The notes under the pieces: model-generated | The model's database searches: none | The model's input: only the letters and a program-made list of their open reading frames with translations | Told to the model about the DNA's origin: nothing | Shown: positions 3,781-37,941 of the stretch, piece after piece | Layout of the letters: each line of letters starts with the position of its first letter | Numbering within the stretch: the stretch's first letter is position 1 | Made by a program: the position numbers and the translations under genes | From: a virus | IMG/VR virus record: IMGVR_UViG_3300045988_118528 | Span: 1-49,339 of that record | Strand: one strand, 5' to 3' | DNA length: 49,339 nt

Positions 3781-6474
3781 TTAACCGCTAAACGGCAATG
3801 CTACACTATCACAAACCTGTATACTAAAACTACCTGTGTCATCTACAATTGCAATAACATTTATGATATTGTTAGCATTTGCAGTTAATGCTGGCGCAAC
3901 GCCTTTCGGGTAGTATACTGCGCTACCTGTCGGGAACGTCCATGCTACTGTTGGCACCGTAGCACCTACAGCAAGCCAGAATGTTAATGTCTTGCACATA
4001 TACGGCACGCTTCCAACGGTCGCTTTGAAGTCCATGCCTTCAAAATTCATAGTTAAGCTTGACGGATTGTTGATTGCGCAGTTAATTAGATAGCAGTTTG
4101 CAGATGGTTGATATAGTATGACATTGCCAGTATTAGGCGTTGAATAATAGGTGTTTTCTGCTGTGCCACAGAAATACAAACAGTTTTCACTGTTGCCAGC
4201 ACGAATAACGCCATTTTGCAAATTAGTGTTTGCGGTCGAGCCAACGATTAAATTTTCTTTCAAGCTTAACGTCCCGTTATAGTCAATCTGTGCCAGCCTA
4301 TCGCCTGATGATTCAAACAAGATGTTTGCTGTACCATTCTTTACGCCGTTAACACTTAAAGTTAAATTTTGAGTTGTTTTATCTATTTCTAAAAACTTAA
4401 AGCTGCCTACCTGTAAAGCTGCATTGTTGGCGTAGTTGATAGCAGAGTTATTCTGCAAGGAAAAAATGCTATAATCTGTGCTGATAGCTTCTGCTTGATT
4501 TGAAAGCCGCATACCTGCCGTGTTATCGGCGGCTTCGGGATAAAAACCTATAATTTTGCTTGTGCCACCGCCACCTACTCTTAAACCACTTGAAGTGCTA
4601 TAGTTTAGAATACGGTTAGCTAAAAAGTCAAGCGTTGCCGTGGTTGCAGTGCCGCCAATGTTGGCAACTTCTGTTGTACCAACATTGAAGAAGTGTGCCA
4701 GTCCTTCTGTGGCTGTATAGTACATTGCTCCCGTGGTAGTGGAGTTTATTTTTGCTTGCGTTGTTGCGCTGTTAGGCTTCATGCCTAATGTAATAGTTCC
4801 ACCAATGCCCGCAAGTGCGCCGTCCCTCACTGTTATAGGTTTATTAAATGTGTTCGTTCCTGTAAAGTTGTTATCTCCTGCGGCGGTAACATCACCGCCG
4901 CCCCCGCCTGCTTCAATGGTAATATCTTGCGTGCCGTCAAAAGCCACACCATTTATTGTGCGGGCAGTTTCTAACTTCGTGGCAGTCTTTGCATTGCCTA
5001 ACCATTTTGCAACGCCTGCATGAGTTACCGTTGCGAAAGCTTGATTATTACTAATTAAAGCCATTTTTAAGGTATCATCACGTATGCTAAGCACATCGTT
5101 GTTAGTTCCAATTCTAAATACATGAGGTTGCGAAGTACTCGTGTTATAAAATAATCCCCCGAAATTGTCTGTACCAATTCTCGCCCGTACTGTTTCATCT
5201 GCTGGAGGAATGCCAAAATTTATACTGCCACTGCTACCTGCCGTTGTGCCATTCGATACAGTAAGGTTTGCTCTGAAAGTATTTAAAGCGGTAAAGGTGT
5301 TAGATGAATTTAATTGAGCATAGCCGCTTAAATCATGGTTGCCTGCGAGAGTATCCCATTTTGTACCGTTCCATGCTACGTTATCTCCCGCCTTGATACC
5401 ATGTCCAGGGTCTGCCGTTTCGACGTTATAAACGTCACCTATTTTTTGCCCTGTAGTCGGCAGGTCGGCATAGGTAGCCACACTGTCTTTGTACGTGTAT
5501 ACTGTTGCAAGCCCTAACTGTTCTGCGGTTACTTTATGCGGGTTGTTATAGTCGGCTTCGTGTGTTGCAAGGTCAGTAGCTACTGTATTAATTTTTTCTG
5601 TTAAATCTGTTGTAGTATTATCTAAATCAGATTTTAACGTATATTCTACCCAGTTTGACCACTCCGACACAGTAACAGGATCGCTGTCTGGTACTATGGT
5701 ACCAAATCTGACATAAGTTTTACCGCTAGCTTGCCCCATAAACTTTTGCCTGATGTATGTTTCGTTGAAATCATCGTCTACATCCAACCAGCCGCTGCCT
5801 GTTTCCGGCGCGTTAGTATTATTGGATGCTTCCAGCAGTTCGCGGGCAAATTCTGTTTTGTCATTAAGATCTACAGCAGTATCAATATTATCGTAATAGC
5901 GTAATTCTTCAACAACAGGAGTAAGGCTGTCTAACCTATTTAACGCTGATGTGGCATCATTTTGTGCATTATCAGCCGTTGTCTGCGCAGTTGTCGCAGT
6001 CGCAATCGCAGTATTAGCAGAAGCTTGAGCATTATCCGCAGTTTCTTGAGCGTTGGCTGCAGCAGTAGCGGCATTATTTGCCGTTGTTTGGGCGTCGGCT
6101 GCAGCTGTTGCCGCATCATCTGCAGTTTTTTGAGCGCCGGCTGCAGCAGTAGCGGCATTATTTGCCGTAGTCTGTGCGTTTTGAGCAGTAGTTTCAGCGT
6201 GGTTAGCTATTTCTATTGCAGATTGTGCTGCATTATACGCCTGATTTGCAGTTGTTAAAGCCTGAGTTGCTATTTCATATGATCCATAAGACATATTTCC
6301 TATATCGTTTATAGCATCCTCCGTCTGCTGCTCAAAGCTAAGTCCTGGTAGTGGTCCAGTCAACGGTGTATACTGAAATTTATAGTATGACCGATTATTT
6401 ATTAAAGTCTGGATGTCAGCAGCAATACGCGCTGACCGTAAAGATGCGGCACGTGATACTTTTGTGTAGTTCAT
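3781..6474 (-). CDS. Tail fibre protein
   Basis: 897 aa. Ala/Thr/Gln-rich tandem repeats (AQTTANNAATAAAGAQKTADDAATAAADAQTTANNAATAAANAQ...) and repeated NTF...T(V)..G modules. Sits downstream of the baseplate genes. Confidence 0.75.
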   Translation of the reverse strand: MNYTKVSRAASLRSARIAADIQTLINNRSYYKFQYTPLTGPLPGLSFEQQTEDAINDIGNMSYGSYEIATQALTTANQAYNAAQSAIEIANHAETTAQNAQTTANNAATAAAGAQKTADDAATAAADAQTTANNAATAAANAQETADNAQASANTAIATATTAQTTADNAQNDATSALNRLDSLTPVVEELRYYDNIDTAVDLNDKTEFARELLEASNNTNAPETGSGWLDVDDDFNETYIRQKFMGQASGKTYVRFGTIVPDSDPVTVSEWSNWVEYTLKSDLDNTTTDLTEKINTVATDLATHEADYNNPHKVTAEQLGLATVYTYKDSVATYADLPTTGQKIGDVYNVETADPGHGIKAGDNVAWNGTKWDTLAGNHDLSGYAQLNSSNTFTALNTFRANLTVSNGTTAGSSGSINFGIPPADETVRARIGTDNFGGLFYNTSTSQPHVFRIGTNNDVLSIRDDTLKMALISNNQAFATVTHAGVAKWLGNAKTATKLETARTINGVAFDGTQDITIEAGGGGGDVTAAGDNNFTGTNTFNKPITVRDGALAGIGGTITLGMKPNSATTQAKINSTTTGAMYYTATEGLAHFFNVGTTEVANIGGTATTATLDFLANRILNYSTSSGLRVGGGGTSKIIGFYPEAADNTAGMRLSNQAEAISTDYSIFSLQNNSAINYANNAALQVGSFKFLEIDKTTQNLTLSVNGVKNGTANILFESSGDRLAQIDYNGTLSLKENLIVGSTANTNLQNGVIRAGNSENCLYFCGTAENTYYSTPNTGNVILYQPSANCYLINCAINNPSSLTMNFEGMDFKATVGSVPYMCKTLTFWLAVGATVPTVAWTFPTGSAVYYPKGVAPALTANANNIINVIAIVDDTGSFSIQVCDSVALPFSG

Positions 6475-36125: not shown

Positions 36126-37745
36126 CTAAAATAAATTTGTCGGTCTCTCGGCTTCTGCTGCTATACCTTGCATAACATATAGTGCATTAGGTAGAGCTAT
36201 TCCATTGCCCCACATCTTGTACTCTGCGCTGTCCGTATGCAGCTTGCTATACCAGGCAAGCATTTGCGCTTTTGTGTAGTCTTTAACGGCTTTGTTGTTG
36301 ATTTTTGCGTAAGCATTACGTACTTCAAGCCAAAATTTATATTCTTCATCCGTGAAGTTTTCTTTTTTATCGGGGTGTCCCCATGTATCGGGAAATCCTT
36401 GTAGGCGTGCACATTCTGTAGGTGTTAAGCGGCGTACTATATAATGCACAGGCACCGCCACGGGTTTTTCTTTGCCGACAACGAACATATCTGTATAGGC
36501 ATCTTGTCCGGTATAGCTACCAGGGTGACTGTTTGCCATGAGCGGACCAGTCGCTTTTTGATATGGGCATGGTTCTACAATAAGCTTTCCTTCTCCGACT
36601 TGTTGCTGTTGGACCCATTTATAGTCTGTTGCACAAAGACTCCCGACAACTTTTTGATAACACACTGCCGGCCGGTCAATGGTATTAAGCGTATAGCATT
36701 TATCCTCTCGCCAGCCTTTGCCGTTACAGCCTGCCGTATCTGCTCTATCTATGCCGTTTCCTTGTAAGCAATAAACGGGCTGTTCTTCGATACATAACGC
36801 AGTGTAATCTGTGACACGGTTGTTATGGTCTCCTGTGATAGTCGGTACAGTTTCACCGTCGCCGTTGCCTCTTGTATCGTAAACAAGAGTTTTTTTATTA
36901 ATAACGCAAGGCACATTTCCGTGCGCTTCGGCCCTTAAAGTAGGGCTTTTGCCGTCAGCGCGGACGCTGATTTGCTGTCCGCCCTGGTCGTCTAAAACTA
37001 ACTCGCTTTCTCCCGCTCTATCATCTGTTCCAGTGCCGTTTTCAGTATTTCCGGCAATTCCTTGCCCCGGCGTTCTGCTCTGCGTAAAATACCCTCGCAC
37101 GCCCTCGCGCTCAAATAATATTTTTCCGGCGCATTCGCCTCTAAAATCTGCGACAAGGTAGATTCTACGGCGACGCTGGGGTACTCCCCAATGTTGAGCG
37201 TCAAAAACTCGGTATGCAATGCTCCATCCGTCTCCACTGATACAATCTGCATATGCCCAGCCAGCTTGCGGAACCGCAGGCATAACGGCGTTCGGTTCCG
37301 TGATTTTAATAAATTCTTCAAGCACAAGCCGGAAATCTTCTCCCCGATTACTGCTAAATACTCCTGATACATTTTCCCAAACAGCGAATCTTGGATAAAT
37401 TCCATTTGTTTTAACCCTCATTTCTTTTATTATTCGGATTGCCTCCATAAACAGCCCGCTTCGTGTTGTTTCTTCGTCGCCGACAGCCGTATGTTTTAAA
37501 CCAGCACGTTTACCAGCTACTGACATGTCTTGACATGGGCTTCCGAAAGTTATAATGTCCACTGGTTCTATCTCTGCACCTTTGATTCTGCTTACATCAC
37601 CCAAGTGCTTCATATTTGGAAAACGGCTTTTAGTAACAGCTATTGGATATGGTTCAACTTCCGATGCATAAACAGGCTCTATTCCGCACAAGCTTGCTGC
37701 TAAAGGAAATCCTCCACTGCCATCAAATAAGCTCATTAGTTTCAT
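36126..37745 (-). CDS. DNA (cytosine-5)-methyltransferase, orphan, with an unusually long variable region
   Basis: 539 aa. Motif I LFDGSGG, IV GSPCQDMS, VI WENVSG, VIII QRRRRIYLV, IX/X RRLTPTECARLQGFPD...GNGIALP. About 230 aa separate motifs VIII and IX. No adjacent restriction endonuclease gene. Confidence 0.9.
   Translation of the reverse strand: MKLMSLFDGSGGFPLAASLCGIEPVYASEVEPYPIAVTKSRFPNMKHLGDVSRIKGAEIEPVDIITFGSPCQDMSVAGKRAGLKHTAVGDEETTRSGLFMEAIRIIKEMRVKTNGIYPRFAVWENVSGVFSSNRGEDFRLVLEEFIKITEPNAVMPAVPQAGWAYADCISGDGWSIAYRVFDAQHWGVPQRRRRIYLVADFRGECAGKILFEREGVRGYFTQSRTPGQGIAGNTENGTGTDDRAGESELVLDDQGGQQISVRADGKSPTLRAEAHGNVPCVINKKTLVYDTRGNGDGETVPTITGDHNNRVTDYTALCIEEQPVYCLQGNGIDRADTAGCNGKGWREDKCYTLNTIDRPAVCYQKVVGSLCATDYKWVQQQQVGEGKLIVEPCPYQKATGPLMANSHPGSYTGQDAYTDMFVVGKEKPVAVPVHYIVRRLTPTECARLQGFPDTWGHPDKKENFTDEEYKFWLEVRNAYAKINNKAVKDYTKAQMLAWYSKLHTDSAEYKMWGNGIALPNALYVMQGIAAEAERPTNLF
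36998..37405 (-). CDS. Embedded +1-frame ORF inside the methyltransferase gene (135 aa, candidate overprinted gene)
   Basis: ATG 37403..37405, with GAGGG 9 nt upstream. Product MEFIQDSLFGKMYQEY...TEFLTLNIGEYPSVAVESTLSQILEANAPEKYYLSARACEGILRRAERRGKELPEILKTALEQMIEREKAS. Purine-first codon periodicity in its 3' half. See findings. Confidence 0.35.
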   Translation of the reverse strand: MEFIQDSLFGKMYQEYLAVIGEKISGLCLKNLLKSRNRTPLCLRFRKLAGHMQIVSVETDGALHTEFLTLNIGEYPSVAVESTLSQILEANAPEKYYLSARACEGILRRAERRGKELPEILKTALEQMIEREKAS

Positions 37746-37941
37746 GTTGATCCTCGCTACTTATGCTAACGCATTCCTTGTCCTGCAATCTTTTAAAGTT
37801 ATTAAATATCTCCCGTGCTTTAACAGCCCGCAGATCATCTGACCACATCAAGCAGCTCGGGCAAATATGCACCTCAAAATATCGACCTCTGTTTACGTGA
37901 CTACCCGCCGTTGTATTCTTATGGCATATGTCGCAATTCAT
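37723..37941 (-). CDS. Small zinc-ribbon protein
   Basis: 72 aa. CDIC...CPSC. Confidence 0.5.
   Translation of the reverse strand: MNCDICHKNTTAGSHVNRGRYFEVHICPSCLMWSDDLRAVKAREIFNNFKRLQDKECVSISSEDQHETNELI

What the first reader, a model, noticed from the sequence alone, without database searches (positions are those of the whole stretch)
36998..37405. Protein-like 135-codon ORF embedded in the +1 frame of the C5-methyltransferase gene, across catalytic motifs VI-VIII
Inside the methyltransferase gene (36126..37745, minus strand), a second ATG-initiated ORF runs from 37405 down to 36998 in the +1 frame, with GAGGG 9 nt upstream.

It is read from the same bases as the ENV and QxRxR motifs. Methylase FAVWENVSG corresponds to alt SLFGKMYQE. 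Methylase GVPQRRRRIYLVADF corresponds to alt EYPSVAVESTLSQIL.

The alt product does not look like frame noise. Its last 60 aa (STLSQILEANAPEKYYLSARACEGILRRAERRGKELPEILKTALEQMIEREKAS) form a clean charged/amphipathic helical sequence with purine-first codon periodicity. Over those same bases the methylase frame is a Gly/Thr/Gln-rich low-complexity linker (GYFTQSRTPGQGIAGNTENGTGTDDRAGESE).

From memory only, and unverified here: strings of the type LFGK..PE, TLN.(S/G)E(W/Y)P and LSQ(I/V)LE...KY(Y/F)LS..AC.GILRRA..RGK.LP..L..AL occur in small hypothetical proteins annotated on phages and ICEs near methyltransferases.

If that family is generally the +1 reading of dcm genes, this would be a conserved overprinted gene of unknown function. 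A methylase regulator or an anti-restriction/defence partner are speculative possibilities.
Basis: partly seen in the sequence, partly recalled or inferred. Interest (0 to 1): 0.75.

Follow-up and report, generated by a model that had tools for sequence, protein, structure and literature searches.

The report
Hidden subunit gene inside phage methyltransferase
A second, out-of-frame gene really is hidden inside this phage DNA cytosine methyltransferase gene; it is conserved in thousands of relatives, including phage P1, and most likely encodes a missing piece of the enzyme itself, so these enzymes are probably built from two proteins read from the same DNA.

Summary
The 135-codon +1 ORF (window 36998..37405, minus strand) exists exactly as described, and it is not frame noise.

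I sampled methyltransferase (MTase) homologues using only the non-overlapping N-terminus. In 137/141 unique loci the +1 frame is open for at least 125 codons (+2 frame: 3/141; null expectation: median 0.005). The ATG sits at a fixed position, preceded by a GAGG made from a rare AGG Arg codon. Excess frame-0 synonymous-codon identity begins at the alt SD/start (from about frame-0 codon 101) and ends at the alt stop. Observed/expected is 0.99 upstream, 1.2–1.7 across motifs VI–VIII, 2.3 over the last 43 alt codons, and 1.07 downstream.

The same +1 ORF lies inside annotated C5-MTase genes of phages P1 (dmt), Pectobacterium, Vibrio, Burkholderia, Akkermansia, Mycobacterium, Streptococcus and C. 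difficile phiC2. In many relatives it is fused in frame to the TRD–IX–X half of a split enzyme.

A profile–profile comparison (84%, E = 7e-6) aligns alt residues ~72–112 with the canonical segment that follows motif VIII in ordinary single-frame C5-MTases. Frame 0 lacks that segment here.

Best reading: alt is a small subunit that supplies this segment. The closest precedent is M.EcoHK31I. Expression and function remain untested.

The parts
36126..37745 (-). Frame-0 C5 cytosine methyltransferase ORF (539 aa) carrying motifs I, IV, VI, VIII, a linker, a large TRD, and motifs IX and X
   Evidence: ORF list. Pfam PF00145 E=4e-41. TIGR00675 E=3e-39. Motifs read directly from the translation.
36998..37405 (-). 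Alt ORF: 135 codons plus TAG, in the +1 frame, nested in the MTase gene
   Evidence: Open in 137/141 unique homologous loci. 1403 protein-database hits. 4481 cluster representatives in the profile search.
37415..37419 (-). Shine-Dalgarno GAGGG for alt, 9 nt upstream of its ATG. It is built from the frame-0 Met-Arg codons ATG-AGG.
   Evidence: ATGAGG at this position heads the unconditional 9-mer tally (109 of 141 unique loci among the 12 commonest 9-mers). GAGG or GGAGG is present in 103/104 filtered loci. AGG makes up only 13% of Arg codons elsewhere in these genes.
37403..37405 (-). Alt start codon ATG, formed by frame-0 Asn(AAT)-Gly(G..), 26 nt before the W of WENV
   Evidence: ATG at this exact position in 126/141 unique loci, counted without conditioning. 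AAT and AAC are about equally used elsewhere (88 vs 101).
37368..37376 (-). Frame-0 motif VI (ENV). The alt frame reads G-K-M across it, a motif forced by frame 0.
   Evidence: Reasoning from the codons, supported by the cross-phylum alignment.
37164..37178 (-). Frame-0 motif VIII (QRRRR). The alt frame reads SVAVE across it, followed by STLSQIL.
37193..37402 (-). Alt leader (residues 2–71). It is kept open and is under clade-level constraint, but it is not conserved across phyla and is predicted to be disordered.
   Evidence: AF2 pLDDT below 50 for most of it. Cross-phylum +1 identity over alt residues 1–67 is 0.22–0.26, against a baseline of 0.18. Within the clade the synonymous observed/expected ratio is 1.24–1.57.
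37070..37192 (-). Alt canonical module (residues ~72–112: GEYPSVAVESTLSQILEANAPEKYYLSARACEGILRRAE), homologous to the post-motif-VIII segment of single-frame C5-MTases
   Evidence: hhalign A4 vs A3: probability 84.3%, E=7.3e-6, aligned to JBP901 residues 179–222. Conserved in P1, Vibrio, Mycobacterium and other phages.
37001..37123 (-). Alt C-terminal basic two-helix hairpin (residues ~95–135: KYYLSARACEGILRRAERRGKELPEILKTALEQMIE...). It overlaps the C-terminal part of the canonical module.
   Evidence: AF2 pLDDT 76–93 for alt alone and 82–95 in the fused protein P0143. It is the best-conserved part: +1 identity 0.52 against frame-0 identity 0.31 across phyla. P(same codon | same amino acid) is 0.85.
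37002..37094 (-). Frame-0 low-complexity linker (GYFTQSRTPGQGIAGNTENGTGTDDRAGESE), encoded by the same bases as the alt hairpin
   Evidence: Frame-0 amino-acid identity over this region is only 0.24–0.50 in the 10-codon bins (0.38 overall for codons 206–248), yet the frame is kept open in 83 of 100 classified loci. A stop occurs in this region in the L003-type variants.
36390..36434 (-). Frame-0 motif IX (RRLTPTECARLQGFP)
   Evidence: Translation. It shows that frame 0 has its own motif IX, unlike M.EcoHK31I alpha.
36201..36209 (-). Frame-0 motif X core (GNG)
   Evidence: Translation.

Best explanation
The +1 ORF is a genuine, ancient, same-strand overlapping gene. It is translated by internal initiation, using its own GAGG Shine-Dalgarno and fixed ATG, on the methyltransferase mRNA.

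Its product has two parts. The first ~70 residues are a poorly conserved, probably disordered leader that exists because the start site lies upstream of motif VI. The rest is a conserved module: (aromatic)-P...LSQILE...KYYLS followed by a basic helical hairpin. This module is the counterpart of the segment that in ordinary single-frame C5-MTases directly follows motif VIII and leads into the target-recognition (small) domain.

In this family frame 0 lacks that segment and has a flexible linker in its place. The enzyme is therefore completed by the alt polypeptide. In the window's architecture alt acts in trans: a single frame-0 chain with motifs I–X plus a free 135-aa alt protein. In split relatives alt is the N-terminus of the second subunit (alt–TRD–IX–X).

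Shown: the frame is under purifying selection, the start and SD are conserved, the ORF is distributed across phyla, in-frame fusions exist, and the module is homologous to the canonical segment.

Inferred: the ORF is translated, the protein binds the enzyme, and it is required for activity.
For: 1. Frame conservation in a sample chosen without reference to alt. The 160 loci were fetched with MTase residues 1–113 only. The +1 frame is open for at least 125 codons in 137/141 unique loci, against 3/141 for +2. The null probability, given the frame-0 protein and each gene's own codon usage, has median 0.005 and mean 0.04. Stop density in +1 is 0.09 per 100 codons inside alt, 8.2 upstream and 4.2 downstream. 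The four loci with a broken alt also have a truncated frame 0.

2. Start signals. ATG is at the same nucleotide in 126/141 loci. An upstream ATGAGG creates GAGG, although AGG is only 13% of Arg codons elsewhere.

3. Synonymous constraint bounded by the ORF. Observed/expected codon identity is 0.99 (codons 1–100), 1.39 (SD and start), 1.24, 1.57, 1.67, 2.28 (last 43 alt codons) and 1.07 after the stop.

4. Cross-phylum conservation. The +1 ORF lies inside annotated C5-MTase CDSs of P1 dmt and of Pectobacterium MA11, Vibrio K456, Bcep22, Akkermansia Chantilly, Mycobacterium Porcelain, Streptococcus Javan108, C. difficile phiC2, an S. suis phage, Curvibacter and Brevundimonas phages. Over alt residues 93–135 the +1 identity is 0.52 while frame-0 identity is 0.31. 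The baseline +1 identity in motifs I–IV is 0.18.

5. Rosetta-stone fusions. About a third of the top 150 cluster representatives are long proteins with the alt domain at the N-terminus. Of the 10 scanned with Pfam, 9 have only the C-terminal (IX–X) part of PF00145 after the alt domain; the tenth is a frame chimera. L167 shows the alpha ORF ending at 498 and the +1 beta ORF spanning 35–1897.

6. Coupling junction. In L003-type loci (18 contigs) the alt stop overlaps the ATG of the TRD–IX–X ORF (GCATGAGC), with GGAGG 10 nt upstream.

7. Homology to the canonical segment. hhalign of the alt module against single-frame MTases gives 84% probability and E=7e-6, aligned exactly to the post-motif-VIII segment. 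Compare phiC2 and S. suis in +1 (LLDILEDEVHEKYFLS, LSDILEAEVDEKYYLS) with the canonical consensus (LKDxLExEVDEKYYLS).

8. Precedent. M.EcoHK31I needs a second polypeptide encoded in another frame inside its own gene (PMC2836561, PMC3404938).
Against: - There is no direct evidence of translation: no Ribo-seq or proteomics data were available.
- Structure prediction could not show packing of alt against the enzyme. Alt alone has mean pLDDT 59, and in the fused P0143 model only the hairpin and the IX–X region are confident.
- There is no PDB relative by sequence or by fold.
- The hhalign match is moderate (84%, 41 columns, Neff 2.5). Part of the module's sequence over motif VIII is forced by frame 0 (+2 identity there is also raised, to 0.34).
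- The homologous module shares its nucleotides with motif VIII itself. Simple frameshift or split scenarios do not explain that, so its evolutionary origin is unresolved.
- Frame 0 is kept open through the linker in 83/100 loci, so a single chain is clearly selected. It has not been shown that this chain is inactive without alt.
Confidence: 0.62

Rival explanations
1. Alt is a real translated protein, but it is not a structural part of the enzyme. It acts as a regulator of methyltransferase expression or timing, a DNA-binding factor, or an anti-restriction or anti-defence partner. The overlap merely ensures co-inheritance and co-expression.
For: The coding signatures say nothing about function. 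The hairpin is basic (RRAERRGK) and folds confidently on its own, as a small DNA- or protein-binding module might. In the dominant architecture alt is a free protein (83/100 loci). No packing against the enzyme could be modelled.
Against: Alt is repeatedly fused in frame to TRD–IX–X in independent lineages. It is never seen apart from this MTase family in any search. It resembles the canonical intramolecular post-VIII segment, and that segment is missing from frame 0. It matches no PADLOC defence model.
Confidence: 0.2
2. The alt frame is used only through programmed ribosomal frameshifting. Ribosomes translating frame 0 would shift into +1 after motif VIII, or ribosomes in alt would shift back to frame 0 before its stop. 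The conserved module would then be incorporated into a longer chain rather than made as a free 135-aa protein.
For: The post-VIII region is a hotspot of frame changes among relatives: single chain, alt fused to beta, and three-ORF forms. In the split forms a +1 shift would regenerate a near-canonical single chain. The conserved part of alt lies downstream of motif VIII.
Against: The alt frame is kept open for about 70 codons upstream of the module in all lineages, including distant ones. The ATG position and the SD are conserved, and synonymous constraint begins at the SD. None of that would be needed for frameshifting. No slippery heptamer is evident near the alt stop in the window, by inspection. 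Form A would need two shifts.
Confidence: 0.08
3. The ORF is not translated. Its openness and the synonymous-site conservation reflect nucleic-acid-level constraints (RNA structure, an internal regulatory element) or codon and amino-acid bias of the MTase frame.
For: There are no expression data. Some alt motifs are forced by frame 0: GKM from WENV, and part of the motif VIII stretch, where +2 identity is also raised. Long alternative-frame ORFs can arise in conserved genes.
Against: Stops in +1 are depleted 50- to 90-fold only between the fixed ATG and the alt stop. The null openness probability has median 0.005, against 97% observed. Across phyla the +1 amino-acid identity (0.52) exceeds the frame-0 identity (0.31) over the module. 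Other evidence against it: in-frame fusions to the C-terminal MTase half, a coupling junction, a confident predicted fold and the profile match to a real protein segment.
Confidence: 0.03

Closest known systems
M.EcoHK31I (alpha/beta C5-methyltransferase of E. coli HK31)
   Same: It is a C5-MTase whose gene contains, entirely within it and in a different reading frame, a second ORF whose product is required with the large polypeptide for methylation (PMC2836561, PMC3404938). The small polypeptide has a dispensable N-terminal part: activity falls sharply only between deletions of 65 and 70 residues (PMC2836561). That matches the ~67–71-residue non-conserved, low-confidence leader of alt.
   Different: In M.EcoHK31I the beta chain is reported to supply motif IX, which alpha lacks. 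Here frame 0 has a clear motif IX of its own (RRLTPTECARLQGFP), and alt matches the post-motif-VIII segment instead. M.EcoHK31I belongs to a restriction-modification system. The enzymes here match an orphan-methyltransferase (oMTase) model and occur in phage and prophage contexts. Sequence homology between beta and alt could not be tested because the sequence was not obtainable.
M.AquI (two-subunit C5-methyltransferase)
   Same: It is naturally split in the variable region after motif VIII: alpha carries motifs I–VIII and beta carries the distal variable region plus IX–X (PMC3404938). The split relatives found here (L167, L003, Mycobacterium phage Porcelain, P0143-type proteins) have the same division.
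   Different: In the relatives found here the second subunit's reading frame starts about 130–155 codons upstream, inside the alpha gene, overlapping motifs VI–VIII. In the window itself the enzyme is not split: frame 0 is continuous, and only the small alt piece is separate.
Ordinary single-frame phage C5-methyltransferases (e.g. Bacillus phage JBP901 gp139, SPbeta-type)
   Same: They have the same catalytic motifs I–X. The alt module aligns to their in-frame segment F.FP....L..RLKD.LE.EVDEKYYLS, which follows motif VIII.
   Different: They have no +1 ORF (the +1 frame is full of stops), and the segment is read in frame 0 about 20 residues after motif VIII. In the window the equivalent is read from the +1 frame, on the same nucleotides as motif VIII.
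Classical overprinted genes of small viruses; dcm/vsr overlap in E. coli
   Same: Two proteins are read from one DNA stretch on the same strand. The added leader is disordered and compositionally biased, as is typical of overprinted regions (PMC8227390 and PMC6195259, for the general properties).
   Different: The overlap is long (135 codons), sits across the catalytic motifs of a dsDNA-phage enzyme, and is conserved across phages of several bacterial phyla. The conserved part is not a de novo sequence but resembles an ancestral segment of the same enzyme. From my own knowledge, unverified here, the dcm/vsr overlap is only a few codons at the gene end.

Membership tests
C5 cytosine DNA methyltransferase (PF00145 / TIGR00675), frame-0 gene | Significant match to the family profile | tested here: met
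   PF00145 E=4.4e-41. TIGR00675 E=2.9e-39, 135.6 bits against a cut-off of 100.65.
C5 cytosine DNA methyltransferase (PF00145 / TIGR00675), frame-0 gene | Catalytic motifs I (FxGxG), IV (PCQ), VI (ENV), VIII (QxRxR), IX and X (GNx) in canonical order | tested here: met
   LFDGSGG, GSPCQ, WENV, QRRRR, RRLTPTECARLQGFP and WGNG, read from the translation.
C5 cytosine DNA methyltransferase (PF00145 / TIGR00675), frame-0 gene | Canonical post-motif-VIII segment (F.FP...L.D.LE...KYYLS) in the same frame | tested here: not met
   Frame 0 reads ...AGKILFEREGVRGYFTQSRTPGQG.... The segment is found in the +1 frame instead.
Protein-coding overlapping gene (alt ORF) | The alternative frame is kept open in diverged homologues, beyond expectation | tested here: met
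   137/141 loci, against 3/141 for the +2 frame. Null median 0.005. Stop densities.
Protein-coding overlapping gene (alt ORF) | Suppressed synonymous variation in the host frame, confined to the overlap | tested here: met
   Composition-corrected observed/expected is 0.99 before the overlap, 1.24–2.28 inside it and 1.07 after it.
Protein-coding overlapping gene (alt ORF) | Conserved start codon and ribosome-binding site | tested here: met
   ATG is fixed in 126/141 loci, with GAGG made from the rare AGG codon. Sites in distant phages are less clear.
Protein-coding overlapping gene (alt ORF) | Direct evidence of translation (ribosome footprints, peptides) | not testable with these tools
   No expression data are accessible. 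The only indirect evidence is the coupling junction and the in-frame fusions.
M.EcoHK31I-type heteromeric C5-MTase (small subunit encoded in another frame inside the large-subunit gene) | A second ORF entirely within the MTase gene, in a different frame | tested here: met
   Architecture as described in PMC2836561.
M.EcoHK31I-type heteromeric C5-MTase (small subunit encoded in another frame inside the large-subunit gene) | The small polypeptide supplies motif IX, which is absent from the large polypeptide | tested here: not met
   Frame 0 carries motif IX at 36390..36434. Alt has no PF00145 match and aligns to the post-VIII segment.
M.EcoHK31I-type heteromeric C5-MTase (small subunit encoded in another frame inside the large-subunit gene) | Both polypeptides are required for methylation | not testable with these tools
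   This needs biochemistry or genetics.
M.EcoHK31I-type heteromeric C5-MTase (small subunit encoded in another frame inside the large-subunit gene) | Sequence homology of alt to M.EcoHK31I beta | not tested
   The sequence was not obtainable: the original paper and the supplement are not held.
M.AquI-type split C5-MTase (alpha I–VIII; beta TRD–IX–X) | The enzyme is encoded as two polypeptides split after motif VIII | tested here: not met
   In the window frame 0 is continuous over 539 aa. The feature is met in relatives: L003, L167, Porcelain and the P0143 type.

The most novel reading that the evidence does not exclude
A very large family of mostly orphan phage, prophage and phage-plasmid C5-methyltransferases, including the dmt gene of phage P1 and its relatives on about 500 enterobacterial plasmids, are obligate two-chain enzymes. 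An essential canonical segment of these enzymes has been encoded in the +1 frame across catalytic motifs VI–VIII since before the lineages infecting Proteobacteria, Firmicutes, Actinobacteria and Verrucomicrobia diverged. That would make it one of the oldest and most widespread long same-strand overlapping genes in dsDNA phages.

A further possibility is that the in-frame post-VIII segment of ordinary C5-MTases and this overlapping version are related by a frame-shifted duplication, so that an overlap was either resolved or created by duplication.
Probability: 0.4. Interest if true: 0.88.

Novelty: new variant of a known kind. Interest (0 to 1): 0.8.

Why it matters
1. Standard annotation misses a conserved gene in thousands of phage and mobile-element methyltransferase loci, including the textbook phage P1. 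Gene callers sometimes go further and replace the catalytic half of the enzyme with the nested ORF (L001).

2. If alt is a required subunit, any codon-optimised, recoded or truncated clone of these enzymes would silently destroy it. That would matter for methylome engineering, for overcoming restriction barriers, and for REBASE-style specificity assignment of orphan methyltransferases.

3. It gives a rare, statistically very clean example of long dual coding across the catalytic motifs of an enzyme. Natural variants in which the overlap partner is free, fused or coupled make a ready-made system for studying how overlapping genes arise, are maintained and are resolved.

4. It suggests that the single known curiosity, M.EcoHK31I, may be one instance of a general design. 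This is directly testable in P1 and E. coli with simple synonymous mutations.

Tried and rejected
- Pfam, NCBIfam and PADLOC scans of alt found no family. Only a weak to moderate match to the uncharacterised phrog_16143 turned up.
- The PDB sequence-profile search returned only antibody noise. Foldseek of the alt model returned nothing (best E=1).
- AF2 of the fused alt–TRD–IX–X protein (P0143), meant to show packing of alt on the enzyme, left the TRD unmodelled. It gives no information on contacts.
- I considered that the database hits were artefacts of gene callers on short contigs. I rejected this because long contigs and NCBI records show the same ORF nested in intact genes, and because the sample fetched independently of alt shows the same pattern.
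- I considered that the window's MTase carries a compensated double frameshift or a sequencing error. I rejected this because the same arrangement recurs in more than 100 independent loci and in isolate phage genomes.
- I considered that alt is motif-IX-like, as in EcoHK31I beta. There is no profile support, and frame 0 has its own motif IX.
- A scan for an internal promoter upstream of alt found nothing on the coding strand.
- The attempt to obtain the M.EcoHK31I and P1 genome papers and sequences failed.
- Four literature searches for a prior description of this nested ORF found none, but the library lacks most subscription journals.
Full report
OBSERVATION

The window carries a 539-aa C5 cytosine methyltransferase (MTase) ORF on the minus strand (36126..37745). 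It matches PF00145 at E=4e-41 and TIGR00675 above its cut-off. Motifs I, IV, VI, VIII, IX and X are present in canonical order.

Nested in it, in the +1 frame, is an ATG-initiated ORF of 135 codons (37405 to 36998). GAGGG lies 9 nt upstream of its ATG.

IS THE ORF MORE THAN CHANCE?

The alt product finds 1403 proteins at E<=0.01 in the 5.8-billion-protein collection. Nearly all are stand-alone gene calls of 130–145 aa with 59–92% identity. The loci examined showed that these calls are the same nested ORF:
- in an NCBI MAG the 620-aa MTase frame is intact and alt is open inside it (L001);
- in a variant seen on 18 contigs (L003–L006) frame 0 has a stop after motif VIII, alt is open, and a downstream ORF carries TRD–IX–X.

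Such hits are selected for openness, so I built a sample that does not depend on alt. I fetched 160 loci from viral contigs and GTDB genomes using only MTase residues 1–113, which lie upstream of alt. They are 64–100% identical in that part and come from Clostridia, Bacilli, Tissierellia and Negativicutes.

Among 141 unique evaluable loci:
- The +1 frame is open for at least 125 codons in 137, against 3 for the +2 frame (medians 138 and 22 codons).
- Resampling synonymous codons from each gene's own usage gives a median probability of 0.005 (mean 0.04) that +1 would be stop-free.
- +1 stop density is 8.2 per 100 codons upstream of alt, 0.09 inside it and 4.2 downstream. The +2 frame stays at 5.5–7 throughout.
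- The four loci with a broken alt also have a truncated frame 0.
- The ATG is at the same nucleotide, 26 nt before the W of WENV, in 126/141 loci.
- The frame-0 Met-Arg upstream is read ATG-AGG in most loci (109 of 141 among the commonest 9-mers), which creates GAGG. AGG is only 13% of Arg codons elsewhere in these genes.

On a codon alignment of 104 sequences (5014 pairs below 85% identity), the chance that two sequences with the same amino acid use the same codon was:

| Frame-0 codons | P(same codon given same amino acid) |
|---|---|
| 1–105 | 0.35 |
| 114–205 | 0.56 |
| 206–248 | 0.85 (frame-0 amino-acid identity only 0.38) |
| after the alt stop | 0.37 |

Corrected for amino-acid composition, observed/expected is 0.99, 1.39 (SD and start), 1.24, 1.57, 1.67, 2.28 and 1.07. 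The constraint starts at the alt SD/start and ends at the alt stop.

HOW WIDE IS IT?

A tblastn search of alt against 50,697 GenBank phages hit 135 records from many host groups. In each of the seven records with a single annotated C5-MTase CDS under the match, an alt-like ORF of 131–192 aa lies in the +1 frame of that CDS. It starts shortly before motif VI and ends about 180–220 nt after motif VIII. The seven records are P1 dmt, Pectobacterium MA11, Streptococcus Javan108, Mycobacterium Porcelain, Vibrio K456, Akkermansia Chantilly and Burkholderia Bcep22.

A more diverse HMM also finds it, again in +1, in C. difficile phiC2, an S. suis phage, Curvibacter PCA1 and Brevundimonas Bajun. It is absent from Bacillus JBP901, Klebsiella GWPR59 and Mycobacterium KFPoly.

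A further 532 plasmids, mostly P1-like phage-plasmids of E. coli and Salmonella, carry the module inside the gene PGAP names a Dam-family methyltransferase.

As a control I anchored the comparison on the frame-0 alignment of the window plus seven distant phages. The +1 amino-acid identity is 0.18 in motifs I–IV, which is the baseline and equals the +2 value. It is 0.22–0.26 for alt residues 1–67, and 0.39 over motif VIII, where it is partly forced (+2 is 0.34). It is 0.52 for alt residues 93–135, where frame 0 is only 0.31 identical.

So across phyla the selected part is the C-terminal module. The leader is merely kept open, although within the Firmicutes clade it is also constrained.

WHAT IS IT?

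An exhaustive profile search found 4481 cluster representatives. About a third of the best 150 are long proteins with the alt domain at the N-terminus. Of the 10 scanned with Pfam, 9 have only the C-terminal (IX–X) part of PF00145 after the alt domain, and the tenth (P0245) is a frame chimera. In L167 the alpha ORF (motifs up to VIII) ends at 498, and the +1 ORF 35–1897 encodes alt–TRD–IX–X.

In L003-type loci the alt stop overlaps the ATG of the TRD–IX–X ORF (GCATGAGC), with GGAGG 10 nt upstream. That is a translational-coupling junction.

In the window's own clade, the 100 loci that could be classified break down as follows:
- 83 have a continuous frame-0 chain plus a separate alt ORF;
- 15 have frame 0 interrupted after motif VIII;
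- 2 have alt fused to TRD–IX–X.

AlphaFold2 predicts a confident two-helix hairpin for alt residues ~95–135, both for alt alone and in a fused protein. Residues 1–90 have low confidence.

The key clue came from comparison with ordinary enzymes. In single-frame C5-MTases the consensus after motif VIII is F.FP....L..RLKD.LE.EVDEKYYLS. The +1 frames of phiC2 and the S. suis phage read EYPKIENEYSLLDILEDEVHEKYFLS and EYPKIENVSILSDILEAEVDEKYYLS. The window reads EYPSVAVESTLSQILEANAPEKYYLS.

A profile–profile comparison of a 19-sequence alt-module alignment with 35 canonical enzymes gives probability 84% and E=7e-6. It aligns alt residues ~72–112 to JBP901 residues 179–222, which is exactly that segment. 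Frame 0 of the alt-bearing enzymes lacks it and has a variable linker instead.

MECHANISM (BEST EXPLANATION)

Alt is translated by internal initiation and supplies the enzyme's missing post-motif-VIII segment plus a basic hairpin. In the window it does so as a free small subunit. In split relatives it does so as the N-terminus of the second subunit.

Shown:
- selection on the frame;
- conserved start signals;
- cross-phylum distribution;
- in-frame fusions;
- the coupling junction;
- homology to the canonical segment.

Inferred:
- translation;
- physical association with the enzyme;
- requirement for activity.

The rival explanations, with my estimated probabilities, are an independent regulator or anti-defence protein (about 0.2), use of the frame only through programmed frameshifting (about 0.08), and a non-coding constraint (about 0.03). 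They are set out with their tests in the rivals section.

COMPARISON WITH WHAT IS KNOWN

Only two natural two-polypeptide C5-MTases are cited in the literature I could read: M.AquI, which is split after motif VIII, and M.EcoHK31I, whose beta chain is encoded in another frame entirely inside the alpha gene (PMC3404938, PMC2836561).

The window resembles M.EcoHK31I in architecture. The resemblance extends to the dispensable N-terminal ~65 residues of beta (PMC2836561), which match alt's ~67-residue non-conserved leader. It fails one reported defining feature, that beta supplies motif IX, because frame 0 has its own motif IX and alt matches a different segment. Sequence homology to beta could not be tested.

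The split relatives resemble M.AquI, but with an overlap of 130–155 codons.

I found no description of this nested ORF in P1 dmt or in phage MTases in four literature searches. One uncharacterised PHROG (phrog_16143) shows that some annotators have called it as a gene.

I therefore rate it a new variant of a known kind. If beta and alt turn out to be homologous, it would be the general form of a known curiosity.

CAVEATS

- There are no expression data.
- The structural models say nothing about contacts.
- The hhalign match is moderate.
- The origin of a canonical-like segment that shares nucleotides with motif VIII is unexplained.

Noticed in passing
L167 1760-1925; proteins P0192, P0243, P0258, P0168; L170 2501-3733: Several alt–TRD–IX–X (beta-type) proteins continue after motif X into a ~45-residue copy of the MTase N-terminus (M(A/G)SLFDGIGGFPL...WASEIEEFPIAVTK.RFP, i.e. 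motif I) and then stop. In L167 the stop is followed by a GC-rich inverted repeat and a T-run that looks like a terminator, judged by eye. This could be a duplicated motif-I tail or the remnant of a tandem or permuted enzyme. Its meaning is unknown.
   Followed up: partly
L170 2501-3733 (Faecalibacterium phage Lelie orf49): The annotated 'hypothetical protein' is a frame chimera. It has the alt N-terminus (about 50 residues), then frame-0-type motifs VII–VIII, the linker, TRD, IX, X and a motif-I tail. It is either a natural indel variant or an assembly frameshift.
   Followed up: no
L001 3622-5484 (NCBI MAG GCA_965337045.1): The gene calls on record skip the intact 620-aa MTase ORF. Instead they call the nested alt ORF (4001–4420) plus a 337-aa C-terminal fragment, leaving motifs I–IV uncalled. 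This suggests the alt frame out-scores frame 0 for the caller, and it is a systematic annotation hazard.
   Followed up: partly
L179 1786-2881 (Mycobacterium phage KFPoly genes 78 and 77): Two 'DNA methylase' CDSs are annotated as overlapping by 173 nt in a +1 relationship. This is a split C5-MTase with a long overlap but no detectable alt module, so long alpha/beta overlaps may have arisen more than once.
   Followed up: no
Literature: PMC2836561 compared with window 37205-37405: M.EcoHK31I beta loses activity sharply between N-terminal deletions of 65 and 70 residues. That is the same length as the non-conserved, low-pLDDT leader of alt (residues 1–67). It hints that beta and alt may be the same kind of protein.
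   Followed up: partly
Plasmid collection, (e.g. NZ_CP040893.1 56768-57031): 532 plasmids (449 from E. coli, mostly non-mobilizable P1-like phage-plasmids) contain the alt module inside the gene PGAP names 'Dam family site-specific DNA-(adenine-N6)-methyltransferase'. The frame relative to that CDS was checked only for P1 itself (L168), not for these plasmid records. The P1-type Dmt is an N-terminal C5-MTase fused to a C-terminal Dam domain.
   Followed up: partly
window 37723-37941 (-): A 72-aa ORF with CxxC...CxxC (zinc-ribbon-like) lies immediately upstream and overlaps the MTase start codon region by 23 nt. A similar small ORF precedes the MTase in relatives (e.g. L002 3367–3585).
   Followed up: no
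L180 1849-2799 (C. difficile phage phiC2 p73): The annotated 316-aa 'cytosine-C5 specific DNA methylase' ends just after motif IX and appears to lack motif X. Frame 0 keeps a partial canonical 'FP..8..LEQL' at the usual distance from motif VIII, while the full LLDILEDEVHEKYFLS lies in the +1 frame. So two partial copies of the same canonical segment sit in two frames about 66 nt apart.
   Followed up: partly
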